IMG/VR virus record: IMGVR_UViG_3300044535_000365
Reading direction: 5' to 3' (one strand)
DNA from: an uncultured virus (IMG/VR IMGVR_UViG_3300044535_000365)
Taxonomy: Duplodnaviria > Heunggongvirae > Uroviricota > Caudoviricetes
Length of the DNA stretch: 64,000 nucleotides
The first letter of the stretch is position 1. The number at the start of each line of letters is the position of its first letter. Positions 4,036-64,000 of the stretch are shown piece after piece. The notes under the pieces are model-generated. The model was not told the origin of the DNA, ran no database searches, and was given only the letters and a program-made list of their open reading frames with translations. A program made the position numbers and the translations under genes.

Positions 4036-4869
4036 ATGAGTACATCTAATAACCCACTAAAGCAATACTTTAGAAGACCAGCTATCTATATCAAGCTACC
4101 ATCCAAGGGTAAATATTATACTCCTGATGTTTTAAATTATCCAGAAACAGAAGAAATACCTGTTTATCCTATGACAGCGATTGATGAAATTACTACAAAA
4201 ACACCCGATGCATTGTTTAACGGTAATGTAATAGTTGATCTTATAAAAAGTTGTATACCTGATATCAAAGATCCATGGAAAATAAACAATATTGATTTAG
4301 ACACTATATTGATTGGAATCAAAGTAGCTTCTACTGGAAATAGTTTAGAACTAGATTCACAGTGCCCTGCTTGCCAGAATAAAGCAACTTATGCAATTGA
4401 TCTAAATTTTGTACTAAGTGGGCTAACGTCACCTGACTATGAAGAAAAATTAGAAGTTCTTGAACTAAAGTTAAAGTTTAATCCTTTGGATTATAATGAC
4501 ATCAATCAAGCTAATTTAGCACAATTTGATTTACAAAGGTTGCTATTGTCCGTTGAACAAGAAAAAGATGCTTCAATAAAAGAACAAAAATCTCAAGAAG
4601 GGTTAAAAACTATTACAGAGTTATCAATTAAACTTATAGCTAAAACTATAGAATATGTTGAAACTCCTGATGGGCATAGAGTAGATAATAAAGAGTTTAT
4701 TGAAGACTTTTTAAGAAACTGTTCTAGAGATACTTTTAATGCAATCAAAGAGCATAACGCTAACTTAAAAGAAAAAACTAACTTAAAACCTTTGGCATTA
4801 CAATGCGGTGAATGTAATCACCAATATCAACAACCATTTACGTTGAATGTATCCGATTTTTTCGGATGA
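4036..4869 (+). CDS. T4 gp26-like baseplate hub / tail assembly chaperone
   Basis: RRPAIYIKLPS, MTAIDE, DLDTILIGIK and two CxxC pairs (CPAC, CGEC); ends in DFFG; GAGG RBS upstream. Confidence 0.7.
   Translation: MSTSNNPLKQYFRRPAIYIKLPSKGKYYTPDVLNYPETEEIPVYPMTAIDEITTKTPDALFNGNVIVDLIKSCIPDIKDPWKINNIDLDTILIGIKVASTGNSLELDSQCPACQNKATYAIDLNFVLSGLTSPDYEEKLEVLELKLKFNPLDYNDINQANLAQFDLQRLLLSVEQEKDASIKEQKSQEGLKTITELSIKLIAKTIEYVETPDGHRVDNKEFIEDFLRNCSRDTFNAIKEHNANLKEKTNLKPLALQCGECNHQYQQPFTLNVSDFFG
4857..4863 (+). other. Candidate -1 ribosomal frameshift slippery site (T TTT TTC)
   Basis: X XXY YYZ heptamer in frame at the end of the 4036 ORF; the -1 frame reads directly into the 4866 ORF; hairpin at 4873-4894 downstream. 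Confidence 0.5.
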
Positions 4870-5093
4870 GGCTCCTTAGTTTAGCCCCTGAGGATATAAA
4901 GAGCCTGATTGACCAGCTAGAAAAAGAATGTATTGAGATAAAAAGACAAGCACTTTCTTTTTCATGGTATTCTAGGGGCGGACTGTCATATACAGACGCC
5001 CTTAATTTATCTGCACCGGAAAGAAAATTAGTAAGTGAACTAATTGAATCCAACTTAGAAACAACAAAGAAATCTAAACTTCCATTCTTTTAA
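4866..5093 (+). CDS. Small baseplate/tail assembly protein (gp51-like), possibly a frameshift extension of the upstream gene
   Basis: 75 aa; WYSRGGLSYTDALNLSAPER motif; ATGA overlap with the upstream stop. Confidence 0.6.
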   Translation: MRLLSLAPEDIKSLIDQLEKECIEIKRQALSFSWYSRGGLSYTDALNLSAPERKLVSELIESNLETTKKSKLPFF

Positions 5094-5100
5094 TCTATAT

Positions 5101-5124
5101 TAAAAGTTGTCCTTACGGACAACT
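5101..5124 (-). terminator. Terminator-like hairpin AGTTGTCC-GTAA-GGACAACT followed by TTT
   Basis: Perfect 8-bp stem with a GNRA loop and a short T run on the minus strand, between convergent transcription units. Confidence 0.5.
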
Positions 5125-5580
5125 GATACACTCATTCGTATTCGCTTTGCTCATACTCATTTCGGTATCATATTGATTAAATTATATCTGGGGTTTAAAT
5201 CATTGCAGTCTTGAAGCCATGGTAGTGCTAAACAGCACTACCACTGGTTAAGATTCCTTGCGGCCTCTCGCCTTTGCCATCTGTTCCCCGTTAGAGTTAG
5301 CCGTTTAGCTACCTAACGCCACCGGTTGCTCTGTAAGGTTTGCTGGGACTGTAGTTGAAGACTAATAGTGAACAAATCACTATCGCTTCAGCAACGCATG
5401 TTCTATATCCGCAAGATAGAATAAAATATAGACTCATTCAGGGTTCGCACACATAACGAGAGCCCTGTCGGTGTTCCGTACAATCAATTACTACTAGATT
5501 GTACGCTTACTCCAGAATCCAACGGCAATAGCACTATGCTAGCAGTCTCAAGGAGAGTCGGGCTATCCCGACTAAACGAA
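5101..5580 (-). ncRNA. Putative large structured non-coding RNA (family not identified)
   Basis: ORF-free and visibly more GC-rich than its flanks. At least 8 local stems plus nested long-range helices; GNRA loops and G-U pairs favour the minus strand. Confidence 0.55.
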
Positions 5581-5590
5581 TTGTTAATAA

Positions 5591-6124
5591 TTATGACTTG
5601 GTGTCGGGTTGAGAATTAGAGTTTGAATATACTTTAAGAAGGTCTTTATTATGATTAAAAAAATGATCAAAGTCAACGAGAATCCAATCACCCTGATTTT
5701 TAGATGTATAGTACATAAACTGGTCAGTAACCCATGTGTACTTAGTTTGAACAGCGATAAACTTACCTTTGCGATTGATCTTAACAAACAAAATGTTTAG
5801 ATCGTCTTTATCTGCTACTGCCATTAACTGTTCTAACCATCCATCAAGTTGTTTACAGCTACCTGCTAGAACTTGATGAAACGGGAAGTCTCCATAAGAT
5901 TTACATTCACAATTGAAGTTAACCCATGAATCTGGAGCAGCTATATCACCTTTAAAAGACTTTACTTGGTTCGTGTCAAGAGATTCTTTTCTTACAGAAT
6001 TCTTTCCACCAACATAAGCTCCTGAATTAGGGATTCTATGAAAGCTGGATTGATATAAGTCGCTAAGATATATAGCGACTGTTCTTTCCCAAGAATTACC
6101 TTTTGCTTTTTGTGGTGATGTCAT
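5591..6124 (-). CDS. Holliday junction resolvase (Hjc-like PD-(D/E)XK nuclease)
   Basis: KAKGNSWER, SGA, GDI and ECK motifs; adjacent to Rad50/Mre11 genes. Confidence 0.8.
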   Translation of the reverse strand: MTSPQKAKGNSWERTVAIYLSDLYQSSFHRIPNSGAYVGGKNSVRKESLDTNQVKSFKGDIAAPDSWVNFNCECKSYGDFPFHQVLAGSCKQLDGWLEQLMAVADKDDLNILFVKINRKGKFIAVQTKYTWVTDQFMYYTSKNQGDWILVDFDHFFNHNKDLLKVYSNSNSQPDTKS

Positions 6125-20881: not shown

Positions 20882-23800
20882 ATGACAAGAATAAGAACTC
20901 TTAATTTTCTTCCCGAAATTTTTCAAACAAAAACCAACACTGAGTTTTTGTCAGCAACACTAGACCAGCTAGTAAATCCTCCTATCACAAAAAAGATACA
21001 AGGATATATTGGTAGTAAAGTAGGTTATGGTGTTAATGCTAATGATTATTATGTAACAGAACCAAATAAAACAAGAACAGACTATCAACTAGATCCCGGT
21101 GTTGTATTTACAAAAACTAATCAGTCAACTGCTCAAGATTTTATTAGCTATCCCGGTATTTTAGATGCACTAGAATTGCAGGGAGGAATTACTAATAATA
21201 ATTCAAGACTGTTTGAAAGTCAGATTTATTCATGGGATTCATTTACTGATTTTGACAAAATAGTAAATTACAATCAATATTACTGGATACCTACTGGTCC
21301 TCCCGCAGTAACTGTGTCTTCTGCACTAGTCTATTCAACCAATGATTATATAGTTACTGATTTAGCTAATGGTTATAATATAAGAGAACTGGGAGCTTCT
21401 GCTGGCAGTACCAATCCTACTATCACTTTATTAAGAGGTGGTTCGTATAGATTTACAGTAAATCAGCCATCACAGTTTTGGATACAAGGAGAACCCGGTG
21501 TATCAGGATTCAGTCCTACTCAACCTAATTTGCCGGTACGAGATGTATATGGTGTTAGTAATAACGGAGCTACTCAGGGTGTAGTTACTTTTACAGTACC
21601 TAGTAAAGATGCACAAGATGAGTTTATATTCCCCGGTAACAACTTAGTTGATGTGATAAGCACACTACCATTTGAAGATGTCAACGGTGCTCCGTTGTCA
21701 GCATTAGGGTCAATTGATAGTATTACTTCATTGAACAACTTACGTGTTATGTTTTATGACACAGGTGTAGTTAATGAGATTGGTTATATTTCTGCATACT
21801 ACGATGAAACTTCATTTGATACGAATGATAATGCATTAGTAGCTCCTTTAGTAGTTACAATAGGAAGTTCTAATTCATCAACTGATAGATTTACTTTATC
21901 AACTGGAAATACTAGTCAGCTAGTAGTTAACAATACTATTACATTTAACAATCCAGTATTTGGTGGAGTAACAGCAGGTACAATTTATTATATTAAAAGT
22001 GTAGACAGTTCTACGGAATTTACTATTTCTGATACATTAGGTGGAGCAACTTTTCCGCTTACTACTGATAGCGGAACAATGACCGCTAACGCAAATCAAG
22101 GATTGTATGAAGAAGGGTTCTATACAACAGTTAGTGAAAACTTTTACAGAATTACTTATGTAGTAGATCCCTCAGATCCTACAAATCCAATTATAAGATT
22201 AATACCAGACGGTTTAATACCAACTGAACAAAAAATAACAGCTACGTACGGCTCAACTTGGATTGACAGACAATTTTATAGAAATACGCTAGGTGTTGTT
22301 TCTTTAGTACCTTATATTACTGCACCGCTTGATCAGCTTTACTATCAAGATGGTACTTCTGCAAACAAAGTAGGTATTATTAGAATAATTGAAAATAATA
22401 CCACGAATACTATAAATGTAGAAACTGATATTTTAGGTAAAAAGAATTACACTTCAACAAATGGTGTTGTGTTTACTAATGGACTAAAAGTAGAATTTGA
22501 CGGTGACGTTATCCCGTCAAGATACTTATCCGGACAATATTACGTAGAAGGTGTAGGTTCGGCAATAGAACTAATTTCAGTTGAAACATTAGTATCACCT
22601 GAAGATTTTACTACAAGTACCTTTGTCCCGTTTGATACTACTCCGTTTGATTTATCAAACTTTGATAGTGATTTGTTTATACCAACAGATTTAGATTATA
22701 TTACTATTGCTAGAAACGCAATAAACAAAAATGCTTGGTCTAGAAGCAACAGATGGTTTCATTCGCAAGTAATTAATCAAACTGCGATTTATAATAATAA
22801 TCCATCAATAGTTACTGAATTCGCTAAAGCAGAAAATAAAGCAAGAAGACCTATTATTGAATTTTATCCTAATTTAGGATTATTCAACTCAGGTACTCGT
22901 GGCAAAGATGCAGTAGATTTCATTGATCAAAGAACAACTGATGCACTATCGCAAATTGCAGGATTAAACAATTATTTTCCTGATGTAGAAGTATATACAG
23001 AAAATACAGTATCTATAGCATCTGTTGTAGGAACATCAACTACTATTACTATTCCTACTGCTGATATTGTAGGAACGTTCCAAGTTGGGCAGTATATTAG
23101 TGATTACTTAGATATTTTACCTAACAACACACAAATTACAAATATAACCATAGCAGGTAATAACACTGTATTAACAGTGTCTTGGGCCGTATCACAATCT
23201 GTTGGCTCAGCTACTAGTGTAGCCGTTATTGCAACAGACACTACAGTTAATAATTACTCTATATTCTCTGGAGCAAGAATTATATTTGCAGCAGACACGG
23301 ATGTGAATGTACGCAATAAAATATATGTTGTTGCACTTTCTCAATTATCCCCATCATCAGTACCGGTTATTACATTAACTGAAGCTCAGGATGGTTTGTG
23401 TGAAGAAAATGATCAAGCAGTTATTACTAGAGGATATAATAATCAAGGTAATACTTATTATTTTAGTAACGATAATTGGATCACAGCACAAGAAAAAGTT
23501 ACTGTAAATCAAGCACCGTTATTTGATGTATTTGATGAAAACGGTATAAGTTTTAGCGATCCAACAATTTATCAAGGTACTTCTTTTGCCGGCTGTACAT
23601 TATTTTCTTATGGCATAGGCTCTGGAACCGATGATCCTATTTTAGGATTTCCTATAAGATACAGTGCTATTGATAATGTAGGTGATATTAGTTTTGATGT
23701 TTCGTTAAACACTGATACATTTGATTATGTTACTGGAACTACTCCTATAACTCAAAAAGTTAACACAGGTTATGTGTTTAATTATGATGACAGAACTGAA

Positions 23801-26800
23801 TATACTAGAGAATTAGGTTGGCAAACCGCGGTAGCACCTAGTGCGCAGTATCAAGTATTTCAATTTACATATCTAAAGGATAATCCTAGTACAACATTTG
23901 TATGCGACATTGCTGCTATATCTGAAGTAGAAGGTCAAGATTCTTGGACTAGTGTACAGGTGTACATAAACAATGCTTGCCAGTGCGTAAGTGAATATTC
24001 ATACACTATTACTGCAAATTCTACGATCATTGAATTATTAGACGTTTCTGAATTGGATAGTGATACACCAATTGAAGTTTTAATATTAAGTAACCAAGTT
24101 AGTAATCAAGCATATTATACAATACCTGTTAACTTAAGTAACAATCCATTTAACCAAGACTTAGAAACAGTTAACGTTGGTGATATTAGATTACAATACA
24201 GAGACATTTATGTAAATGCTCCCGGTATGTTAGGTCAAGTATTTGGATCAAACAATTATAGAGACTTAGGTAACTTAGTTCCATATGGAACTAACATAAT
24301 TCAAAATAGTGCTTCTTTAGTATTACCCGGCACATTCTTGCGTAAAACAAATCACAACTTGTTTGATGCGTTACAATTTAATAGCAACGAATACACTAAG
24401 TTTAAAAATCTATTAGTAGATACTATTAATAATGCAGAATATGTACAACGATACACGCCTTCAGAAATACTAGATCAAGCTATTGATATTATTACTGCGG
24501 CTAAAAGTGAGTCACAAGCGTTCTTTTGGAGCGACATGTTACCTGCTAAGTCACCATTAAGAAGCAACACTTATACTTTTGCAAACAATTTAGATACAAG
24601 CATTTATCCGTTAACTACAACATATAACTTTGCTACTGCTAACTATAATGGTGTTATTGTTTATTTGTCAAGAATAATAAGCAGTGTAACTATACAGAAA
24701 CAATTGATTATTAATCAAGACTATGTTATAAGTCAAGATGCTCCGTCACTAACTGTTACGTTAGACTTGATTGCGGGTGACAAGATTACTATTAAAGAAT
24801 ATAATCAAACTTATGGTAGTTATGTTCCTAACACACCAACAAAATTAGGTTTATATCCTGCTTATACTCCTCAAGTAGTGTTAGACACTGCTTATACTCA
24901 ACCAACATATTTTATTAAAGGACACGATGGTTCTTATAATAAGTTATACGGATCTTATAACACTAATTTGGGTGTTCTAGAAGACTTTAGAGATCAGGGC
25001 TTATTAGAATTTGAAACAAGAATTTATAACAACTTAAAATTAAGCAGCACTGTACCTATTCAAACATATGAAGTGCTACCGGGATTCTTTAGAGATACCG
25101 ACTATACATATAGCGAATTCTTGCAAATGTATAGTGAAAGTTTCTTAAACTGGGTAGGGCAAAACAGATTAAATTACAAAACTCAGGTTTTTTCTAAAGT
25201 AAATGAATTTACTTACAATTACACCAATGCAGCTAACAAATTAACTAATACACCGATTGAGCAAGGTTATTGGAGAGGTGTGTATCAATACTTTTATGAT
25301 ACTACAACCCCTAATGCTACGCCATGGGAAATGTTAGGTTTTACTGATCAACCAACTTGGTGGACAGAAAGATATGGTCCTGCGCCTTATACTAGTGATA
25401 ACTTAATTCTTTGGAATGATTTAGAACAGGGTGTAATTTGGAATGACGGAGTACCTATTACAGTTGAAACAGTTGCTCGTCCTGGCTTAACTAATATCAT
25501 TCCAGTAGACAGTGCAGGTAATTTAGTTTCTCCGTTTGTTGCAATAGTAGGAAACTACAACCCTAATACATTCCAAAGAGATTGGAAAGTGGGTGATGAT
25601 GCCCCGGTTGAATTAAGCTATCGTAGAAGCTCAGCATATCCTTTTGATCTGATGAGAATATTTGCATTAATGAAACCTGCTAACTTCTTTAACTTGGGAG
25701 TAGATGTAGACAACTACAAATATAACTTAGAGTTTAATCAATACTTGGTAAACAACAGAAGTCATTTAGTAATAAGTGATGTTGAAATCTATGGTTCAGG
25801 TACTGCAAAAACAAGTTATATTAACTGGATAGTTGATTACGAAAAGCAAATAGGAATAAATGCTACTGAAAATATTACTAACTTACTTGATAACCTTGAT
25901 GTAAGATTAATTTATCGTTTGGCTGGGTATAGCGATAAAAACTTGCTAAAGTTCTATGTAGAAAAAGGAACTCCAAACAGTAGAAACGCATCATTGTTAA
26001 TTCCAGACGAAAGTTATTCATTGCTTCTTTATGATAATCAACCGTTTGATAGAATTGTATACTCAGGAGTTGTAATACAAATAACACAGGATGGTTATAC
26101 TGTATTTGGTAATTCACAAACTAATGCATACTTTAAAGTATTGAAGCCAGTAAACAATGGTAAATACAATAACATTCAAGTTGAAGATGCTCAGGTAAAA
26201 GTTGCAGTTGATTATACTGCTAACGAATTATTAATTCCTTATGGTGCTAAGTTTTATAGCGAACAAGAAGTAGCACAGTTCTTGTCTAGTTACGGTGCAT
26301 ATCTAACTTCACAAGGTATGATATTCAACGATGTCTTAGGTGGAATAGAAGTTAACTGGGATCAAATGATCAGTGAATTCTTATACTGGTCACAAACTGG
26401 CTGGGAAGTAGGAAGTATTCTTTTATTAAATCCATCTGCTCAAACATTGAAAATTGACAAAGAAAGTTCAATTGTTCAACCGCTTACTGTACAAAATACT
26501 AATTTTGTATTGAATCAAAACTTGTATCCAATACAAGCAAAAGACTTAAGCGTGTTTAGAAACGGTACTGAGTTTAGTGTTACCGCACTTAATCAAGGTG
26601 ACACTGTTTCTTATGGACAGTTTAATTTAAGTAACTTTGAACATGCTGTGGTATTTGATAATACTACATTGTTTAATGATACTATATACAATTTAATTAC
26701 TGGGTTAAGACAAAACAGAATATATGTAAGAGGAACTAAAACCGCTGAATGGAACGGAACTATTACCGCTTCAGGATTTATATTAAATCAAGACAACATA

Positions 26801-29800
26801 AAAGAATGGTCAAGAGCAGTCAAGTACACTAAAGGATCAATTGTACTTTATAAAAACAAATACTGGACTGCATTAAAAGTAATTGAGCCTAGCAATATTT
26901 TCAATGAAAGAGATTGGAAAGAAACCGATTACGATCAAATTCAAAAAGGATTATTACCTAACTCTTCAACTAGATCATATGAAAGTGCGTTATATTATGA
27001 CACTAACAAAGCTAACTTAGAAAACGATGCAGACCTATTAGGATTCTCACTGATAGGTTACAGACCTCGTGACTACATGGCATTAGTAGACTTAACTGAT
27101 ATTACTCAGATTAACGTTTATCAAAACTTGATTAAAAACAAAGGTACTCGTAATGCGATAGAAGCATTTAGAGGAGCTACCTTACCGCAAGGTGGTATTG
27201 AATATGAAGTCTATGAAAACTGGGCTATTAAAAGCGGTGAGTTTGGTGGACTATTAAACAAAAACTTTGTAGATTTTAAAATCAACGAACAATATCTAAC
27301 AGGTAATCCATCAATTGTTAGCTTGACTAACGGTGTTTATACTCCGGGTTCTCAACAAGAAGTGCCTATATATAGTTTGTTCAATTATGCTAGACCTATT
27401 GACTCTCCTAATATTTTAAGTACTATTGATCCTTCTACTCCAACACAAGTATATCCTGATGCTGGATATGTAAACTTTGATGATGTTAAAATGTCTTCTT
27501 ATTTCTATTCAGGGTTACCAGTAGCAAGAGATAAAAATAATGAGCCTGTACTTATTAATGATTTTTATGTAAGAGACTACGCTTGGTTAGCTAACTATCT
27601 AGGAAACTGGGATGTATTAGCTTGGACATCTGTTGGTAGAGTAATAGCAGTAAGAAGTAATCTAAACAATACTGCTACAATAACATTTGCTCAACCTCAC
27701 GGTTTAGTAAGACTGCAACCTCTGTCTATTATAAACTATGCAACAAACGTAGACGGATATTACATAGTAGCTAACATAGTTAACTTGAATGAAGTGATTA
27801 TTAACTTACCGGTAGCTACTGAAATTGCAAGCACTGGTCAAGGTATTGGTTTAACATTCCAATCACAAAGAGTAAGCAATCCTGCTAGTATTAATAACCT
27901 ACCGCTACTGGATACAGAGTTTGTAAAAAATACTGTATGGGTAGACGAAAGCACTGACGGTAGTTGGGCTGTATATAGAAAGAGTTTGAACTATCAGTAT
28001 AATAATGAAGTAACAAAAACTAACAGCACTACATTTGGTAGCGCAGTTGCGTACACTGATCAAGCAGGGTATTTAATAAGCGATGCTAGTGCAGGCGAAG
28101 TTTATCGTTACGCTCAAGATTCTGCTAACAATTACTTTATCGTAGAAACACTAACCGGCGGAACATCATTTGGTTCTAAGATCGTTTATGCAGGAAACAC
28201 TTATGTAATTTCTGAACCTACTACTGCTTCAGAAGTTCATGTATATGTAATTAATGATAGTCAGTTGTCAGACGATTTTGTTCTTTATCAAACAATCGCT
28301 GCACCCGGCGGAGTAACAGATTGGGGTAGCGAACTAGCTATTTCCGGAGACCAAAATTGGTTATATATTTCTGATATTGCAAACGATAAGGTACATGTTT
28401 ATCAGAAACAAAACATATTGCTTAATGCAGGATATTTTGTTTCCGGACAAACTTATGTTATCACTGACTTAGGTACTACTGACTTTACATTAATTGGTGC
28501 GATTGAAAGCAAAGTAGGTATCACGTTTGTTGCAACAGGAGTAGGTACCGGCACCGGTGCAGCAACTCAGATCACTTACAAAGCGTCAACAATAATCAAC
28601 GGAGTAGCTTTAAGCTTAGTATCATCAACTGATAAGTTTAGCAAGTCTATTACTACAAACTACTATGGTGATGTGATGGTAGTGGGCGCTCCTGATAAAG
28701 ACTATGATGGCAACATTGCTAACTGGGGAAGTGCTTTTGCATTTTCTAGAGCAGTTCAAAATATTGAAGTTCAGTTTAATACAATAGGACAAACTTTCCA
28801 ATTAGCATGGACACCTATAACAGTATCACGAACAGTAAGTGCTACTAATGCCACAGGAAACTTGATCACATTAAACAGTGTATCTGGAATAGCAGTTAAT
28901 GATCCTATTATCTTTAGCGGTACTGGTTTACTTGGTACCGGTATTCAAGGAAATAGTGTTTACTACATAAGAAGTATTGCAGGATCTGATATAACAATAA
29001 AAACTTCAAGATCATCTATTACTCCTGAGGCAATATCTACCGTAGGATCTGTTTCTAACGTAACTGCTACCGTGCAAACCTCACCATTATACGTATCTAG
29101 AAACGGCGTAATAGTTCAAGATAACAACTATGGTGTGATAGGTAGTACGTTCGTTTACTCAGGTACATTGACAGCAGGTGATATTATCACAGTAAGCGAT
29201 AGTAAGTTTACTTACGCGCAGACCTTTACATCAAATTATAATAATAGAGTAGGCACTCAGTTTGGTTATTCACTTGATACTATTCAATCAGGTTCTGAAA
29301 TATTAATAGGATCTCCTTTTGAAATTAGTGACGAAAACCAAGAAGGTGCTGTTTATAGATTTACAAATGCTGGAGCAAAATTTGGTTTAGTAACTGGAGT
29401 AAACGAATGTAATGTTACTGCTGTTCGTCCTTTACTAATTAACGGATACTTTGTTAACGTGCCAATAGGAAACGCAACAGTTGTAGCTAATGCTATTAAT
29501 TCTGCTAATATTACTAACATTCAAGCAGCGGCTACTGTAGATAATAAACTAATGATTCAAGTTATTAATACTGATCTAACTCAGGTTAATCAGAAACTAA
29601 TAATAACAGCGGTTGATACCACTACATTAACTGAACTAGGTATTGAAATATATACTAACACACAAGTTATTAACTGCCCGCATGAATTTGGACCTACTCA
29701 GTTTGGATCAGTAGTTCAATTCAACGAATATGATTCTGTAGTGATTAGCGCACCAGTAGCTACTCGTTATGAAGGTACTACGTTTGATTTTATTGATGAC

Positions 29801-32800
29801 GAAGATTTTACAAACGATACTATTTTTGACAACAACGCTACACAGTTTATAGATACTGCACCAAATGCCGGCGCAGTTTATATGTTTGATTACATTTCAA
29901 ACTATAACGAGAACTTAACTAATATCGGTGAGTTTGTTTATGCACAGTCTGTAAACAGCAAAGACATAGTATACGGTTTCAATCCACTTTATGGCACTGC
30001 TTTAGATTTCAACAGCAATGTAGTAATGATAGGCACACCTAACTTCTTACCAGACTCAGTAGACGGTCAAGTAACTATTTACGAAAATGAATCAGGTATT
30101 AAAGACTGGTCAATATACAGAAATTCTGCGCCTATAGTAAACATTGATAGCATCCAGAATGCACAACTCTTTAGTGCTGAAACAAATAACACATTGATAA
30201 ATCTTGATTACATTGATCCATTACAGGGTAAACTATTAGGATCTGTAAGACAAAACATAAACTATGTTACTTCAATTGACCCTGCTAATTATAACAGTGA
30301 TGAGATTTTTGATCCTCAGTCAGGGTTAATTTGGGGCCCTGAAAAAGTTGGTAAAGTATGGTTTGATACTACTAATGTTCGTTTTGTAAATTACCATCAA
30401 AATGACTTAGTATACAACAGCAAATATTGGGGAACAGTATTTCCTGGTAGTGATGTTGCTGTTTATACTTGGGTAGTAAGTAATGTTTCTCCTAGAGATT
30501 ATCAAGGCCCCGGCACACCAAAAGATAGCACTAGATATACTGTTTCTAGTATAATAGATTCTTCTAATATAGTTACTCCTGTTTATTATTTCTGGGTAAG
30601 AAATTCAAATATAATCTTTAGAGAAGAAGGAAAAACATTATCTGATACAATACTTGAATCTTACATCAGCAATCCTAAGAATTCTGGTATCGCATTTTTT
30701 GCTCCGCTAAGAGATAATTCATTTGCTCTTTATAACTGTGCTGAATATATTAATGCAAATGATAGCGTATTCCATATAGGGTATGCTAATGGTACAAATG
30801 ATGATGAAGCACACTCAGAATATACATTAATTAAAGAAGATTTTGCTGATGACTTTTTACCTGGACTACCTAAATTAGGAAGCAACGCAGAACCTATAGG
30901 TCTTTATGATAGACTGTTAGACAGTTTGGCTGGAGTAGATGAAGAAGGAAGCGTAGTACCTAACCCGTACTTACCAAAAGCAGTTCAGTCTGGTGTATTA
31001 GCTAGACCAAGACAAAGTTTCTTTTACAATCGTTACCTAGCATTAAAGAATTACTTAACATATGCTAATGAAGTATTAGCTCAGTATCCGATCAGTGAAA
31101 TTAGACCTGACATATCTTTATTGTTTGCTCAAGGAGAATTTTACAATACACCAGACTACTGGCAGTATATTAACTGGTGGACAACTGGATACGACAACAA
31201 CACTAAGTCAGCTATACAAGTTCCATTGTACGCCGATCTGTCTACCTTATCTGTAGCAACAGACACTATTGTTACTGTAGAAAACAATGGTAGCGGTAAG
31301 TTTGAAGTTTACAGATATGATGGAAACAGCATTTGGACTCGTATCGGTTTAGAAAATGGAACTATTGAATTTAACTTGACTCTTTGGGATTATGCTGAAG
31401 CAAGACTTGGATTTGGTGATAACTTCTTTGATACTAGTTCATATGATGAATATCCAAGTGAAGAAACTAGATATATCATTCGCGCATTGAACGAACAAAT
31501 TTATATTGATGAATTATTGTTGTTTAGAAACAAAGGATTGATATTATTATTTGACTACATTCAAAGTGAAAGTACTGAATCTCAAAACTATTTACCTTGG
31601 TTAAACAAAACTTCATTAGTAGATGTGGCTCATACTATAAGAGAATTGAAACCAATAGAAGTGTTTCAAACTGATAATCAAGACTTTTTAGCAGGATACA
31701 TTAACGAAGTTAAACCTTATCATGTGGTTGTAAAAGAGTTTGTATTTAAGTATACAGGAATAGACACATTTGATGGTAATATTACAGACTTTGATTTGCC
31801 TGCTCAGTATGATAAATCAGTAAATCAGTTTATTACTCCTTCATTAGTATATTCTAATCCTAATCAAGATAATGAATACGTAGATACTGACGATATTTGG
31901 CAAACTGCTCCATACACACAATGGTTTCAAAATAAGGGAGTAAGCTTAACCGGTGAAAGTAATTATGAGATCACTACATTAGTTTCTTACATGACTTTGG
32001 GTTCATCGTTTATGTTTGTAGACAATGCTCAAGGATTCCCAATCAATGGTACAATTAGAATAGGTAACGAAGAAATAGCTTACTCTTCAGTTGACAGAGC
32101 ACTTAACTTAGTTTCAGGACTACAAAGAGGACTAAACGGAACAGCTATTTCTCAACATTTCCCTAATGAAAAAATCTTTATTGATTTACCTGAAGTAATT
32201 GTTCTAAATGGAGGAAAAGGTTATGTTGATCCTCCTAGAGTAACTGCATACGTTGATCTTGATTTGTATCCTGCTCCTACTACAGAAGCAGTATTTGAAG
32301 CAGTAATGAGTTTAGATTCAGTTTTAAGTATTAACGTAATAGATCCTGGTCAGGGATATATGGTTCTTCCTGAAATTAGAATAGATCCTTCAGTAGTAAT
32401 ATCATTTACTAATGCTGATATTAACTCAACATTACACACAATAAGAGTTTATGGTCCTAACTTAGCTACCGGAGACTTAGTACTGTTTAAACAAAGTGAT
32501 GCTGGGGTCGGTCGTTTAGCTAATAATCAATGGTACTATATCAATGTATTAGAAACAACACCAACTGCTATAGTTGCGTTTTACTCTAACTACAGTGACG
32601 CTATAAATGATACAAACAGAATACAAATATCTGATATCGGAACAGATGATCAGTTAACTATTAGTTTAGGAGCAAAAGCCTCTGCGATCACTTCTGCGTC
32701 TCCTATTAGAGAAAATAATATCACACTAAGATTTGATAGAACAACTTATACTTCACAAGTACAAGATTGGAGAGCAGGCACATATTACGGATCATTCTTT

Positions 32801-35800
32801 GCTGGTAGTTATTTTAATAGCGAAAGTGTTTCTAGCTCGTCAATGCAATTAGAAAGTGTATTACCTCCTATCTCATCAGTATTAGCAAGTGCTCAAGGTG
32901 TTGCGTTTGAAATCACAGATGTTGACAATGATAGACAGCTAACTTGGTCTTCATTAGAACGTAACGTAGGCAACACGATATTAGCTACTAATGCAATTAG
33001 ATTGATACCTCTAGATGATGGTTCTGCTAATCCAAATGCTTCAGGATCAACAATAGGTTTCTATGAAGGCATGCCTGTTAAGTTTGTTGGTGCGGTTGCT
33101 GGTGGATTACAAGAAAATATTACTTATTATGTTAAAACAATTATTAATGATACAGACTTTACTGTATCATTAACCGAAGGTGGCGGCACAGTAACTTTAA
33201 CTAACGCAACTATTCCTGCAGCTGGATTAAAATGTTTAGCAGGCGAAGTAGTAGATACTGCTGTATTAACTGTTAACTATCCCGGCATACTTGAAGTAAC
33301 AGCTACCCAAGCAGGTACTAATGCGTTAACTGTTCCTATGAGTTTAATAGGTACAGGAGGAACTGAAGGATTTTATACTAACTTGCCTGTATTCTTTACT
33401 AAGTATAGTGTAACTGAGCCTGTGTTTGGTGGGGTAATTGAAAATGACGTATATTACATAACAACTGTTATTAATAGTCAAACGTTTACTATTTCAGAAA
33501 CACAAGATCCATTATCAACTACTGCAACTGCAACCACTGCATCTAATAATAGAGTAACTGTTTCTTCAACTGATGATTTTAGTGTTAACGATCCTATTAT
33601 ATTTACTGGAACTACATTTGGTAACATTATTGCCGGCACAACATATTATGTAAGTGAAATAGTTAACACAACACAAATGACTATTTCTACTTTGATTAAC
33701 GGTGGTGTGTTTGTATTATCTAACGGTGCAGGTAGTATGCTGTTAACCAGTCAAGCTAACACATTAACATTGTCTACTGCAACCGGTTCTATGACAATGA
33801 ATGTATCTTTACCAGTAAGCCCTGGACAAGTAAATGGTCAGCTGTTTACTTTGTATAGTACGTCTGAACAATATCCAAACGTTTCTGGAACAAACAGTTC
33901 GTTAATTGAAAGAACAATGACGGCTACAATAGCTACTTTAGATAGAATTACTATTGACTCATCTACTGGAAACACCGACGATTTTTATGTTAATATGCCA
34001 GTACAATTTGATACTACTATAGGCGGACTAACAGCAGCAACTACATATTACATAACTGATTACGGTATAGTAGAAATAGATGCTATTAGTACATCATCAA
34101 GTAATTTAATAACCTGTGATACTACTGAGTCATTATATGTAGGCATGCCTATCATATTCTCAGGTCAAGGACTAGGTGGTATTACAATAGGAGTAGAATA
34201 TTTTGTAGAAAGTATCAATATTGATGGAATTAGATTCACTATATCTGATACTGACGGAGGAAGTGTAAAAATACTTACAAATGATTCAGGATCAATGTTA
34301 GGAACTGGAGAAGAGTATATAACAGTATCCGCTAGTAGCGGTGGATCCGATGTAACTTTATCTAACACAGTAAGTGATTTTGATATGACTCAAGAAATCA
34401 TAATTGATGCAATATTTGATGTAAGCTATATATTAGGCGGATATAGAGCATTAGTAAGTACAGCAGGAGAAGGTTACGCGGTTAATAACACTATCGTTAT
34501 ACCGGGTGCTGATATCGGCGGAGCAACACCTGCTAATAATTTAACTTTAACGGTAAACACTATAGATGAGACTGACGGAGGAATCATTGATGTAATTTGT
34601 TCAGGTATAGTAGCAGGAACATCTGATCAATATTACTTAAAAGTAATATCTCCAAATCAGTTTGAAGTTTACTCTAATCCTTTAATGACTGTACCGGTAA
34701 CCGGAATTGGATTTGATTTTGTAGGATTCACTACTACAACTGCAACAAACATTACAGCATCAAATGATAGAGTAACGGTTACAAGTTCAGCTAACTTTAG
34801 CGTAAATGATCCTGTTGTATTTACGGGCACTATTTTCTCATCACAAATTACATTAGGACAAACATATTACATCGTTGATAAGCCAACAGCAACTACTGTA
34901 AGACTGACTACTGAACCCGGCGGATCAGTTATTAACTTTACTACTGATACTACCGGCTCAATGTCAATGACTAAAGCAGGCAGTTTTGCATTATTGCCGG
35001 AACCATTCTACTTTAATCAGTCTATTGTTAAATTTAACAACAGAGTATATGTGTGTGTTGTAAGTAATAATGATGACGACTTTATATTTGGTAAGTGGGA
35101 ATTACTAGATTCAGGTGACCGCAGACTTAACGCTATGGACCGAGTAGTAGGATATTATCAGCCTACTGTGAATATGCCGGGTGTTGACTTAACTCAGTTG
35201 TTTGAGGGAGTTACTTATCCTAATAGTACATATTTAGGCAATCCTTTTGCTCCTGCCCAGCAGTACGAACTAGATACTATTTTACAGACACAAGCGTTTT
35301 ATCCAACTGATATTGATGTTGCGTCTGTAGTTTGGAACGGTACTAATTATTTGGCTGCTGCTAGTGCACCAAACTATTCTGCGGTGTTAGGCAGCGAAAC
35401 CGGCGAATCTTGGGCAGTTGCTAAACTTACTAATGCGGGTATAGGATTAACTGATATCATACAAGCTAATAACATATATGTTATGTCTTCCACTAACTCG
35501 GCTACTCCTATACTTAGAAGTAACGACGGGATAGTGTGGACTACAACAGGCACTGTTACAAGTGAAATAGGCCCTCAACCAATAAGCATTGCTGCGCTAT
35601 CATTACAGTCAGTAGCTTACAGAAACAATCTTTTCGTTGCAGTAGGAGAAGGTATTGTTTCAAGTAGCGACACTTACGATTGGACTCAACGATTAGCGTT
35701 TACTGAGTATGATAATACACTATACGGAGTTAGTGCAGTAAACGTTGCTGCATTTACTGGATTTGTTGCAGTAGGTAAAGGTGAAGTACCTGAATATTCT

Positions 35801-38800
35801 ACTGGGTTAACTCAAATAGTAGATACTAATTTAATATACTACAGCGCAAACGGAATAAATTGGACCGGTGTAAACTTTATCCCATCAGCTGGTGTAAACA
35901 CAAGCACACCTAATGGATTTAATGGCGTTGCCGCTAACGGAAACAATATCGTAGCAGTTGGTGAAAATGGTGTTATATATTACAGCGAAAACGGTGCAAG
36001 TTGGTTGGGCGTAAATGAAGTAACAGTACTAAGTGTAAACTCTGCTACTGAACAATTAATTTTAACTAACACTGCTGGATTTGCTGTAAACGATGTGATT
36101 AGATTCACTGATAGTTTTAGTTCTATTACTGCTGGAATTAGTTATTATATAAAAACTATCGTATCTTCAACTCAAGTTGAAATATCTACAAGCTTAGGCG
36201 GCACAGTTCTAAATCTTACTGATGGAAGCATTCCGTTTAGAACTAGAATGTATTCATATCCTACTACTGCAACACTGAATGATGTAGTATACGGTGATGG
36301 AGTGTTTATTGCGGTAGGTGACACAGGAACAATTAGAACATCTACTAATGCAATTACTTGGACTACGGTTGCCTCAGGTACTACAGAAAAATTAAAAGGA
36401 ATTTCTCATAAAGAAACCGGTTCGTTTATTGCAGTAGGAGAAAATGACACTGTATTGTTAACTGATGATTATGGTGTTACTTGGACAGTATCAACACTGT
36501 TTGTGGTAGCTCCTCCAATCTATGATATTCAAGGTGATGCATTTACAGCAGGTTACGCTCCTGAAGAATTGGTTGCAGGTATGGTAACTGACAATCTTGC
36601 AATGACAGTAAACACACGTCCTGGAACAAACTGGCCTGCTACTGAATATGCTCACACTGGTTATAATATAGTATCTTTAGAACTAAATCCAGTATCGTCA
36701 ACTCAAACAGTGTATAGCTTTGATGGTGCTGCTCAGTACCCAACTGAAATATTTGTAGCTGTGATCAATGGTACTACTGGATTGTCTACTACGATTTATG
36801 AAGGTACTGATTATGCAATTGACTGGATAAACAATATAATTACATTAACTACATCTATCGCATTTACCCCTGTTAGTGATACTCTACGAATTGATGTATA
36901 CGAAACAGGTAACGGTGATCAACTAGTTAAATCTAATTCTAAGACTGATCCTATCAGACTTAATACTGATACTGGCTTTAATGAAATTTATCTAAACTGC
37001 AATTATTCAGGTGTTATATATTCTGGCAGTGGTGTAATACGCCCTGAAACATATTCAGTAGAAGTATTTGCTACTGCTACTGAATCCGTGACTAACAGAA
37101 TATTGTGTGACAGTGTTCAACAGTTTGTTATAAATGAACCTATTAGATTCCAAGGAGTAGTATTTGGCAATATTGTAGAAGATCAGCAGTATTATGTAAA
37201 ATCTATTAGTCCCGCAACTAATACTATTACTATTTCTGATAGCATTAACGGAATAACCGGAGTTGCAGGTTCTATATATGTGTTAACTGATGCTACTGGA
37301 TTAATGTTAGTAAACATTGAAATAGGTAGTGGTTTGGTTTGGACAGATCCTATTGTCACTTATAATGGAACTAAATTAGTAATAGGTAATACTAATACTG
37401 CTGTTAAAACTAAGTCAAGCAACAACGCAGTGGTAACTGTATCTACAAATGGATTAATAGCTAACTCTCCCGTAACGTTTGGTGAGGGTATATTTACAGG
37501 AAGCAATATTGATCCTCTTACTACATACTATATAAAAACTATCATAGATAGCAACGAGTTTACTATTTCTGAAACACCAAGCGGTTCTGTAAAAGTATTG
37601 GGTAATGCAAGTGGTAGATCAATGTACATAACAAACGACTATGCTATAGGATTAGCAAGCAATGGAATTTCAGCTAAATTAGTATTTGCTGCTCCGTACG
37701 ACAACTCTACTGATTATCTGTCATATACAATATTTGGAGAAACATTCCCGGCACAATATGGATACACGCTACCAGAAACACAAATACTTTCTGGAGATGG
37801 TATAGAAGATACATTTGCGCTAAACAACTTTGTAGGCGGTGATAATCCTGGTAATGCTATTGTAGAAGTTGACGGTATTAGATTGTCACCATTAGGTGAT
37901 TATACTATAGATCCTGCTTTAGATGAAATTATATTTAACTCAGCACCTACTAATGGTAGTACTATAGCAGTTACTACGTTTAATGATACTCAACAGCAGT
38001 ATTTGAATACTCAGGTTATAGGTGACGGAATCTCAACTGCACCGGTAGTAAACGCTATTCAAAGTATATCTAATGAAATAACATTACCACTAGCTGTTAC
38101 TCGTGCTACTGCTACTACTGCGGGCGTACCTAATGAAATAACAGTAGACAGCACTTCAGGATTTGTACTCAACGCTACTGTAGAATTTAAAGGTATTTCG
38201 TTTGGCGGGATAGCAACTGACGGAACTGTGTACTTTGTTGATAGTATTGTAAGTAGCACTGTGTTTACTATCAAAAACGAAAACGGAACTCAAATAGTAA
38301 CCACACTAGGTACAGGTACTATACAAGTTACAGTAGGCGGAAAACCTGCTGTTAGAGTAACAACTGCTGCGGCTAACGGACTAAGTGAAAATGACTTAGT
38401 AAGAATAGATGGTACGTTAGGATCAATCCAACTTAATAACAATACTTACTATGCTAAGATAATTGATTCAACAACATTTGATTTATACGAATCAGGGATT
38501 CCAGGATATGCAGGTTATAATCCTGCATTCGGTGCTGTAAACTACCCGATTACTACTATTTCTTCTTATACAGGTGAAGGATATGTTTGGTTAGTAGATT
38601 CTTATTACTTAGTAACTCAAATTGCTACCGCTACAACTACATCAACTAACTTGATTACAGTAACTTCTACTAGTCAGTTAGTAGTAAATACGCCGGTAAT
38701 ATTTACCGGTTCTGTACTAGGTGGTTTAGTAGCGGGAACAACATACTATATACGTGCGATAGTTAGTGCAACACAGTTTACTGTTTCTGCTACACGAGGT

Positions 38801-63289: not shown

Positions 63290-63451
63290 ATGATATTATG
63301 TATCTGTAATAACATTAGAGAACAAGATATCAAAAGACAACCTGAGTTAGCAAAACTAATTGGAAGTTGTTGTGGTAGATGCTTGATAAAACAAGCTGAT
63401 ACTAAAACATCAAGCAGCTTTTATGACGCTGCTAAAAAAGAAATTCGTTGA
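63290..63451 (+). CDS. Minimal BFD-like [2Fe-2S] ferredoxin (not in ORF track)
   Basis: MILCICNNIREQDIKRQPELAKLIGSCCGRC...: C-x-C...G-x-x-C-G-x-C pattern of bacterioferritin-associated ferredoxin; GGGAG RBS. Confidence 0.7.
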   Translation: MILCICNNIREQDIKRQPELAKLIGSCCGRCLIKQADTKTSSSFYDAAKKEIR

Positions 63452-63780
63452 AGCATGAGATAGGAAGTTTGTACCCGGGTTCGAACCCCGGCATCTCCAC
63501 CAAAAGAGTATTACATCGTTCCGCCTGTTGACCGCGATGGTAAATTACTGAAAGGGGATTAGGTAGTTCTTTATAGTACTCTTTTGATGGGGATGATTTG
63601 GATTCGCCAAACAACTGAAGGTATGTGGAGAATAGGTGAACGCAGAACACCTTTAAGGACTGGGAGTTTCTCGGTTAAAGAAGCAAAAAAGTAAACGCAA
63701 ACGATGAGTTCGCACTTGAAGATATTCGCCTAGCGGCGTAAGCTTCACGGGGCTGGTTACCTTGTTATCAAACAACTAAG
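63440..63780 (+). ncRNA. ssrA: Circularly permuted (two-piece) tmRNA
   Basis: T-arm CCGGG-TTCGAAC-CCCGG and CATCTCC-A-CCA end at 63502. The matching 5' strand GGGGATG starts downstream at 63589 (G3-U70 alanine identity). Tag ORF 63697-63741 encodes ANDEFALEDIRLAA. Outer boundaries are approximate. Confidence 0.92.
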
Positions 63781-63782
63781 AG

Positions 63783-63808
63783 GGGAGCTTTATGCTCCCT
63801 TTCTTTTT
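63783..63808 (+). terminator. Rho-independent terminator after the tmRNA
   Basis: GGGAGC-TTTAT-GCTCCC followed by TTTCTTTTT. Confidence 0.85.
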
Positions 63809-63827
63809 ATCTATACTAAATAGTAGT

Positions 63828-64000
63828 ATGGTATTAATAACAGAATTAACAGATTTCAGTCTATCAGATGCAGTTAAGTTTCACGATGAACTTAACCCTG
63901 CTCTTTGGAACGATGACCAATTAGATCCAGAAGTTAGAGAACAACTAATAGTAATAGCAAAAGATTTCTTACAAGAACTTGGTGTTAGTCAATTAGATGT
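63828..64000 (+). CDS. Partial ORF, probable nucleotidyltransferase-domain protein
   Basis: MVLITELTDFSLSDAVKFHDELNPALWNDDQLDPEVREQLIVIAKDF...; this N-terminus recalls large-phage nucleotidyltransferase-like proteins, but catalytic motifs would lie outside the window. CTAAATA ends 5 nt before the ATG. Confidence 0.45.
   Translation, partial: MVLITELTDFSLSDAVKFHDELNPALWNDDQLDPEVREQLIVIAKDFLQELGVSQLD

What the first reader, a model, noticed from the sequence alone, without database searches (positions are those of the whole stretch)
5101..5580. Unidentified ~480-nt highly structured element, probably a large minus-strand ncRNA with a pseudoknot
Seen: the largest ORF-free gap in a gene-dense window. 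Local stems: 5556-5573 (AGTCGGG/CCCGACT), 5529-5541, 5477-5505 (9 bp), 5439-5467, 5401-5421, 5356-5390, 5289-5318, 5220-5243 (10 bp) and 5105-5124 (8 bp, GTAA loop). Nested long-range complements: 5549-5554 with 5255-5260; 5521-5528 with 5274-5281 (two G-U pairs only on the minus strand); 5469-5473 with 5320-5324; 5390-5395 with 5325-5330. A 5-bp pair, 5506-5510 with 5333-5337, crosses the last two, which would be a pseudoknot. It starts just after the resolvase stop and ends in a terminator-like hairpin. Inference: a multi-domain phage RNA co-transcribed with the recombination genes. I cannot match it by eye to tRNA, RNase P, tmRNA or an intron. The 5-6 bp long-range matches could individually be chance.
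Basis: partly seen in the sequence, partly recalled or inferred. Interest (0 to 1): 0.8.

Follow-up and report, generated by a model that had tools for sequence, protein, structure and literature searches.

The report
Self-targeting jumbo-phage RNA, likely replication origin
This gene-free gap encodes a real, intricately folded RNA shared by hundreds of uncultured giant phages; a short stretch of the RNA always matches a stretch of its own DNA about 50 bases further on, and DNA-type hairpins follow, which suggests the RNA pries open its own gene to start genome copying (not yet shown by experiment).

Summary
Real and conserved. The element lies in 158 of 177 resolvase loci. The scan saw this RNA before on other DNA (e1-5365887). 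New here: (1) two 7-9-nt direct repeats flank a 3' hairpin and change together to stay identical (123 of 132 identical in subtype B, 18 expected; 25 of 26 changes on one branch); no complementary partner exists in the RNA, and tolerated mismatches favour the upstream copy pairing with the DNA template strand at the downstream copy. (2) After an AT-rich spacer, hairpins carry DNA-type C(GNA)G loops (173 of 242, against 2 of 588 in the RNA part); they are not terminators. (3) One subtype's 5' domain is Rfam Polynucleobacter-1; the window's is not. Best reading (0.5): a ColE1-like, RNA-primed (R-loop) replication origin in T4-like jumbo phages. No reads, skew or experiment shows origin activity.

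The parts
5591..6124 (-). RusA-like (PD-(D/E)XK) Holliday junction resolvase, last gene of the gp55-gp47-gp46 operon that reads into the element
   Evidence: phrog_244 E 3e-17; PF24608
5200..5575 (-). Structured RNA domain, about 375 nt (type A of the family); ends inferred from conservation only
5556..5573 (-). H0 hairpin, variable, missing in some homologues
   Evidence: 77% paired, 26 compensations
5510..5555 (-). P1 (5552-55/5510-13) with near-invariant UUG bulge, enclosing H1 (about 5521-5547)
   Evidence: P1 99% paired, 4 compensations; CCCA/UGGG in subtype B1
5477..5505 (-). H2 hairpin, variable length
   Evidence: 5504:5478, 16 compensations
5439..5467 (-). H3 hairpin with conserved internal loop (equivalent to GGCTCTGTGAAAAAGATACAACC of subtype B1, matched by eye)
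   Evidence: 99% paired, 36 compensations
5398..5437 (-). H4 hairpin; its loop (5410-5424) forms pseudoknot 1 and the 5421:5349 contact
   Evidence: 116 compensations over H4a+H4b
5277..5419 (-). Pseudoknot 1: 5414-5419 with 5277-5282
   Evidence: 828 of 834 cells paired, 40 compensations; same knot in subtype B1
5319..5395 (-). Core: GUUGCU 5390-95 with AGCAAC 5325-30, short stem 5337-38/5319-20, invariant ACUAC 5351-55; variable H5 5356-5388
5285..5348 (-). Pseudoknot 2: 5345-5348 with 5285-5288, enclosing H6 (5289-5318)
   Evidence: 23 and 88 compensations
5258..5265 (-). DR1 (GGCCGCAA): upstream copy of the co-varying direct repeat, proposed guide; in this genome 6 of 8 identical to DR2, one G/A and one C/T difference
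   Evidence: read; family statistics
5220..5243 (-). H8, 10-bp hairpin between the repeats, near-invariant in type A
   Evidence: 97% paired, 8 compensations
5203..5210 (-). DR2 (GACTGCAA): downstream copy, proposed DNA target
   Evidence: as DR1
5153..5202 (-). AT-rich, poorly conserved spacer (candidate unwinding element); overlaps the left arm of the next stem
   Evidence: type B median 35.5 nt, 73% AT, n=104
5125..5169 (-). Stem 5165-69/5125-29 carrying the mini-hairpin GCAAAGC (5144-5150; family: ACGAAGT, GCGATAGC, GCGTAGC, GCGAAGC)
5105..5124 (-). Terminal 8-bp hairpin; loop GTAA here, C(GNA)G triloop in most homologues; proposed single-stranded-DNA signal
   Evidence: 100 of 142 (A), 73 of 100 (B) GNA loops
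4036..5093 (+). Baseplate-hub chaperone ORF (4036-4869) and overlapping 75-aa ORF (4866-5093), converging on the element
   Evidence: phrog_150

Best explanation
The element is a transcription-primed (R-loop) replication origin that works like ColE1's. Read-through transcript from the upstream operon folds into the pseudoknotted domain (shown by covariation). Hairpin H8 loops out about 50 nt so that DR1 in the RNA lies beside DR2; as RNA polymerase clears DR2, DR1 pairs with the DNA template strand there over 7-9 bp (pairing inferred from identity covariation and mismatch direction) and keeps the duplex open into the AT-rich spacer (inferred). The hybrid is trimmed or extended to prime leading-strand synthesis by the phage polymerase (inferred by analogy). 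The displaced non-template strand folds into GNA mini-hairpins (DNA-type loops shown; role inferred) that load helicase/primase for the lagging strand.
For: Repeats stay identical: 123 of 132 subtype-B 7-mers, 18.2 expected; on a tree built without those columns 25 of 26/29, 4 of 4, 17 of 17 and 15 of 18/17 changes fall on one branch and end identical, null means 4.1, 0.09, 1.6, 1.7; six repeat positions are the six top identity signals in a 76-row B1 alignment; type A column 5263:5209 20 same-branch changes, null 2.6. No partner in the RNA: complement of own repeat in 57 of 132 elements against 0.52 for other variants, none consistent within 1.2 kb in the 32 rows printed before one search failed. 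Mismatch origins fitting DR1 on the complement of DR2: 22, opposite direction: 6. GNA triloops 173 of 242 at the 3' end, 2 of 588 in the RNA part, on the non-template strand; such DNA mini-hairpins mark G4, RSF1010 ssiA and N4 initiation sites and are much weaker as RNA (PMC13037366, passages). No conserved own promoter or U-tract. One core per genome in G000-G002. The strongest gene-divergence point lies 5.0-7.4 kb upstream in three genomes; T4 origins sit near such switches and use R-loops (PMC3016281, passages). Phage encodes PolB, clamp loader, DnaB helicase, primase, SSB, UvsX, UvsW-like helicase and a 5'-3' exonuclease. ColE1 needs an rG stretch to pair with a template dC stretch (PMC4412123, passage) and carries GAGCGTAGCGA at 1332-1342, about 135 nt past its origin on the same strand.
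Against: No direct evidence of origin activity. No replichore-type skew at four-fold sites in G000, G001, G002. The profile of the 3' module finds the ColE1 site only at E 0.23. The three genomes are syntenic, so one observation, and 7-11% of each genome lies that near a switch. Mismatch direction rests mostly on flanking positions, is weak in type B alone (14 against 6) and may be biased by the A-rich flank of DR2. In type A DR1 usually needs a 1-2 nt bulge, and the window's own repeat is degenerate and its own loops are AAA and GTAA. T4 R-loops need no RNA structure or specific sequence. No RNase HI family gene in 5 records. 19 of 177 resolvase loci show no element within the DNA fetched. 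A ~375-nt ornate fold is more than a 9-bp hybrid would seem to need.
Confidence: 0.5

Rival explanations
1. A free, trans-acting ornate RNA (GOLLD/ROOL-like scaffold) with two identical binding sites for one phage protein; the 3' hairpins are a separate DNA signal or protect transcript ends.
For: Size, pseudoknots and phage location resemble GOLLD/ROOL (search listing). Low-depth RNA contigs cover part of it. Identical sites need no base pairing.
Against: One repeat position flips A/G 25 times in step and at least 13 different 7-mers occur, hard to explain by protein co-evolution; spacing varies 48-61 nt; no conserved promoter or terminator.
Confidence: 0.2
2. Same RNA-DNA pairing, different outcome: the RNA guides a phage nuclease (for example the adjacent resolvase, cutting an extruded H8 cruciform) to nick its own locus and start recombination-dependent replication or packaging.
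For: All evidence for DR1-template pairing; resolvase adjacent in most loci; H8 near-invariant in type A, as for a protein site.
Against: Element is separable from the resolvase; resolvase relatives without a detected element exist (L025); mini-hairpins fit priming better than cutting.
Confidence: 0.12
3. Primer translocation: a short RNA started de novo at DR1 (or cut at its end) is moved to DR2 and extended, as between hepadnavirus DR1/DR2 (recalled).
For: In the listed type-B variants DR1 begins with a purine; 7-9 nt is primer size; same mismatch direction.
Against: Bulged DR1 in type A could not pair as a free oligomer; does not explain the large fold.
Confidence: 0.08
4. A ribozyme (self-cleaving, splicing or circularising) acting at two identical sites.
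For: Invariant junction nucleotides and a doubly pseudoknotted core.
Against: No guide complementary to the repeats inside the RNA; interrupts no gene; no match to intron or RNase P models; no joint across the repeats among those listed (poor cover).
Confidence: 0.05
5. A telomerase- or DRT-like template (A-B-A') copied by a reverse transcriptase into tandem repeats (systems recalled).
For: Short direct repeats flanking a unit of about 50 nt.
Against: No RVT_1 match in G000 or four records 99-100% complete; realignment of cDNA would tolerate the opposite mismatches.
Confidence: 0.02

Closest known systems
ColE1-type origin (RNA II pre-primer, rG/dC hybrid nucleation, downstream n' pas/ssiA)
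   Same: Order of parts: long folded RNA, an upstream RNA segment matching a downstream site on the same strand (six-G runs at 928-933 and 1175-1180 of L186; their role from PMC4412123 passage and recall), then a single-strand signal with the same 11-mer.
   Different: No sequence similarity; repeat is freely variable and only about 50 nt apart; no own promoter; no antisense RNA found or tested; phage brings its own replisome.
Phage T4 oriF/oriG R-loop origins
   Same: T4-type replisome and UvsW-like helicase, transcript running into an AT-rich stretch, position near a strand switch (PMC3016281 passages).
   Different: T4 origins are about 100 bp, sequence-independent, multiple, and have no described RNA fold, repeat pair or hairpin signal.
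Rfam RF01718 Polynucleobacter-1 RNA (Weinberg 2010, PMC2864571; 141 nt, 16 members, function open)
   Same: It is the 5' domain of subtype B2 of this family: 71-120 bits in 8 of 20 loci scanned, directly upstream of the shared core.
   Different: The window has another 5' domain and does not match. The model lacks the core, pseudoknots, repeats and DNA hairpins.
DNA mini-hairpin initiation signals (G4/St-1/alpha3 origins, RSF1010 ssiA, N4 promoters)
   Same: GCGNAGC/GCGNNAGC and CCGAAGG hairpins (PMC13037366 passages).
   Different: Here they sit in double-stranded phage DNA behind a large RNA gene.
GOLLD, ROOL, OLE large ornate RNAs
   Same: Large, pseudoknotted, phage-borne.
   Different: No model match; no sign of own promoter, terminator or high abundance.

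Membership tests
ColE1-type replicon | Homology to RNA II / RNA I | tested here: not met
   No blastn match in PLSDB; no Rfam match
ColE1-type replicon | Pre-primer RNA from its own promoter | tested here: not met
   sigma-70-like site in 4 of 128 upstream regions; the window is one such case (5676-5648)
ColE1-type replicon | Upstream RNA segment pairs with template DNA near the origin | tested here: inconclusive
   Identity covariation and mismatch direction fit; pairing itself not observed
ColE1-type replicon | Primosome signal on the displaced strand downstream | tested here: inconclusive
   DNA-type hairpins on that strand; shared 11-mer but profile E 0.23
ColE1-type replicon | Antisense control; RNase H and Pol I dependence | not testable with these tools
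   needs reads and biochemistry
T4 oriF/oriG | Transcript entering an AT-rich unwinding element | tested here: met
   73% AT spacer after DR2; same-strand gene upstream
T4 oriF/oriG | Persistent R-loop and autonomous replication | not testable with these tools
   experiment needed
Polynucleobacter-1 (RF01718) | Score above gathering threshold (37 bits) | tested here: not met
   Window and G000: none; met by subtype B2 only
GOLLD/ROOL/OLE | Covariance-model match | tested here: not met
GOLLD/ROOL/OLE | Abundant discrete transcript | tested here: inconclusive
   Only contigs, depth 5.6 or less
Group I intron / RNase P / tmRNA | Model match; intron interrupts a gene | tested here: not met
   lies between two stop codons
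RT template RNA (telomerase/DRT type) | Reverse transcriptase in the genome | tested here: not met
   0 of 5 records with PF00078

The most novel reading that the evidence does not exclude
A widespread jumbo-phage RNA folds into a device that presents a freely reprogrammable 7-9-nt guide, invades its own DNA with it and so fires the phage origin: an RNA-guided strand-opening system unrelated to CRISPR, OMEGA or bridge RNAs, with swappable 5' domains, one of which is the orphan Polynucleobacter-1 motif.
Probability: 0.4. Interest if true: 0.92.

Novelty: new variant of a known kind. Interest (0 to 1): 0.78.

Why it matters
My searches found no described origin or RNA for this large clade of aquatic T4-like jumbo phages. 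A structured RNA whose guide and DNA target co-evolve would show that the ColE1 trick arose again in phages in a programmable form, would give a context to an orphan Rfam motif, and is testable with one plasmid, purified RNA polymerase and matched repeat swaps. Identity covariation is also a signal that ordinary RNA-structure pipelines discard.

Tried and rejected
Rfam: whole window gives only a permuted tmRNA; at E up to 10 the region gives two chance hits. blastn: no match in INPHARED phages or PLSDB for type A; one chance hit each for type B. Bacterial genomes: of 121 pattern hits only L715 scores as a real element, from a metagenome bin, possibly a phage contig. RNA reads: 4 of 6 listed runs laid, all contigs; one 236-nt contig at 5242-5477 (depth 5.6), others on neighbouring genes; no strand, ends or level can be read. 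Replichore skew: none. Five small contigs checked for being stand-alone replicons: all linear fragments. Extra identity signals seen in the mixed type-B alignment (columns 44/145, 100/153) were not among the top signals of the B1 alignment; not used. Type-A spacer statistic dropped (pattern matched 8 rows). An exonuclease first taken for RNase H is Rv2179c-like. PA5oct: profile search negative, so only a candidate. Fremin 2023 supplements: six motifs not found, but files 1 and 2 could not be searched. Weinberg 2010 motif description (S1.DOC) and S3.PDF could not be read and may mention the downstream part. The Polynucleobacter chromosome copy could not be fetched.

Full report
Setting. The window is part of a 267-kb, about 76% complete T4-like jumbo-phage record. 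The gap 5094-5590 lies between a RusA-like resolvase ending the gp55-gp47-gp46 operon (minus) and the baseplate-hub chaperone ORFs (plus). The nearest cultured resolvases are 42-43% identical over the full length (PA5oct group, SCTP-2, Phosso).

Is it real? It folds better than all 100 shuffles on either strand and has no Rfam or blastn match. The element lies in 158 of 177 distinct resolvase loci with at least 1.5 kb downstream, and in 96 of 96 at 60% or more protein identity. On 142 type-A rows (157 thinned for redundancy) with a tree and parsimony, helices H3, H4, H6 and two pseudoknots carry 11-22 independent compensations at their best pairs. G-U outnumbers A-C 183 to 14, fixing the minus strand. 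These are my own MAFFT and parsimony counts, not R-scape.

One family, swappable front ends. Subtype B1 (46 of 140) shares the window's 5' domain (19-31 bits to the type-A profile in seven rows) and the same topology: H3, H4 loop knot, GUUG/CAAC core helix, second knot (76 rows). Subtype B2 (49 of 140 by motif) has instead a 141-nt domain that is Rfam Polynucleobacter-1 (1 of 6 and 8 of 20 loci scanned; Weinberg 2010, PMC2864571: table passage and supplement rows seen, motif description unreadable). So a fragment of one subtype is catalogued without function; the window's form, the core and the 3' parts were not found in Rfam or in my searches.

The anomaly: direct repeats that change together. 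Flanking the last RNA hairpin are two 7-9-nt repeats, 48-61 nt apart. In type B they follow CTC and TCT and are identical in 123 of 132 copies, 18 expected if independent, over 13 different identical 7-mers; a third, partly overlapping set gave 48 of 58 scored rows (of 90) with DR1 chosen blind to DR2 and further variants. On a tree built without these columns (119 of 140 rows kept), 25 of 26/29, 4 of 4, 17 of 17 and 15 of 18/17 changes coincide and end identical, tighter than an ordinary hairpin pair (19 of 32). Type A shows the same (column 5263:5209: 20 coincident changes, null 2.6), usually with a 1-2 nt bulge in DR1; the window's own pair is 5258-65 and 5203-10, 6 of 8 identical, and its clade sits one register off in the alignment. 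Two identical segments can be held so by a shared complementary partner. None is in the RNA. The remaining partner is the other DNA strand. Mismatches that would be wobbles if DR1 pairs with the complement of DR2 arose 22 times, those of the opposite direction 6 times (B 14:6 in 132 rows, A 8:0 in 102 of 157 rows); many other mismatches also occur at the flanking positions, so this is a lean, not proof.

The 3' end is DNA-like. After DR2 comes a 73% AT spacer (median 35.5 nt, n=104 type B), then a mini-hairpin (ACGAAGT, GCGATAGC, GCGCAAGC and kin) and a 6-10-bp hairpin whose loop is a GNA triloop, nearly always closed by C-G, in 100 of 142 type-A and 73 of 100 type-B cases, against 2 of 364 and 0 of 224 loops in the RNA part, where GNRA loops occur. 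GCGNAGC/GCGNNAGC hairpins are exceptionally stable as DNA, much less as RNA, and mark primase and polymerase start sites of G4, St-1, RSF1010 ssiA and N4 (PMC13037366, passages). No U-tract follows. They read GNA on the non-template strand, the one an R-loop or D-loop would displace.

How it most likely works. The order folded RNA, self-matching segment, AT-rich stretch, single-strand signal is that of ColE1: RNA II forms a persistent hybrid, is cut by RNase H and primes synthesis; the displaced strand loads the helicase (PMC5043065, PMC3167613, passages); an rG stretch must pair with a template dC stretch (PMC4412123, passage citing Masukata and Tomizawa 1990, not read). ColE1 shows two six-G runs (928-933, 1175-1180) and the 11-mer GAGCGTAGCGA at 1332-42 (that this is the pas and where the origin lies is recalled); the profile match there is the best in ColE1 but only E 0.23. 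T4 itself starts from R-loops near strand switches (PMC3016281, passages); here the strongest divergence point is 5.0, 5.6 and 7.4 kb upstream in three syntenic genomes. The phage has a T4-type replisome, a UvsW-like helicase and a 5'-3' exonuclease (131 of 149 ORFs of at least 180 aa scanned). Shown: fold, strand, co-varying repeats, DNA-type loops. Inferred: RNA-DNA pairing, R-loop, priming, origin use. I give the origin 0.5, some form of RNA-DNA pairing about 0.7.

Against. No skew signal, no informative reads, no homologue in plasmids, no RNase HI family gene, a degenerate repeat and atypical loops in this very genome, and 19 loci without a detected element. A protein binding two identical sites remains possible (0.2).

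A cultured lead. PA5oct has a 1-kb gap facing its baseplate-hub gene that holds a near match to the B1 H3 motif (L344 5310-5289, by eye and pattern) and folds with z -5 to -7.5 in its 3' half, but the profile does not find it and it is not among the four ncRNAs of Lood 2020 (PMC7318152, passages). Candidate only.

Verdict. A real, largely undescribed RNA family with an unusual, strongly supported self-matching repeat; most likely an RNA-primed origin; a new variant of a known kind; interest 0.78.

Noticed in passing
window 63410-63832 (+): Permuted two-piece tmRNA, tag ANDEFALEDIRLAA; such tmRNAs are typical of alpha- and some beta-proteobacteria and cyanobacteria (recalled), a hint at the host.
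   Followed up: no
window 4036-4869 and 4866-5093 (+): Overlapping hub-chaperone ORFs with a TTTTTTC run at about 4859-4865; earlier notes of the scan read this as a -1 frameshift.
   Followed up: no
L237 840-1260 (-), 4907-5491 (-): A pmoC/amoC-bearing phage (PF04896) carries a diverged element behind a 269-aa ORF of no Pfam family instead of the resolvase.
   Followed up: partly
L344 4550-5900 (-), PA5oct record about 75.7-77.1 kb: Candidate larger homologue in a cultured phage; four tiny annotated ORFs there may be spurious; over 99% conserved in 11 records.
   Followed up: partly
type-A loci, 260 nt after H8: TAAAT(G/A)A on the RNA strand in 52 of 119 loci, 6 on the other strand; resembles the ATAAATA seen in the two divergent intergenic regions of the window; role unknown.
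   Followed up: partly
L031 3526-4272, L034 3549-4292, L020 3896-6172; L225, L272, L274, L276, L300, L306, L307, L310: Genes insert on either side of the element but, in the loci seen, not inside it.
   Followed up: partly
L715: Complete-looking type-B 3' part in a Flavobacteriales metagenome bin; may be a misbinned phage contig.
   Followed up: partly
L639-L640: The core-like 19-mer recurs four times, three at about 551-nt spacing, in a Cyclobacteriaceae chromosome; scores only 16 bits against the family, so probably another repeat.
   Followed up: no
window 20882-39676 (+): A 6265-aa ORF, not analysed.
   Followed up: no
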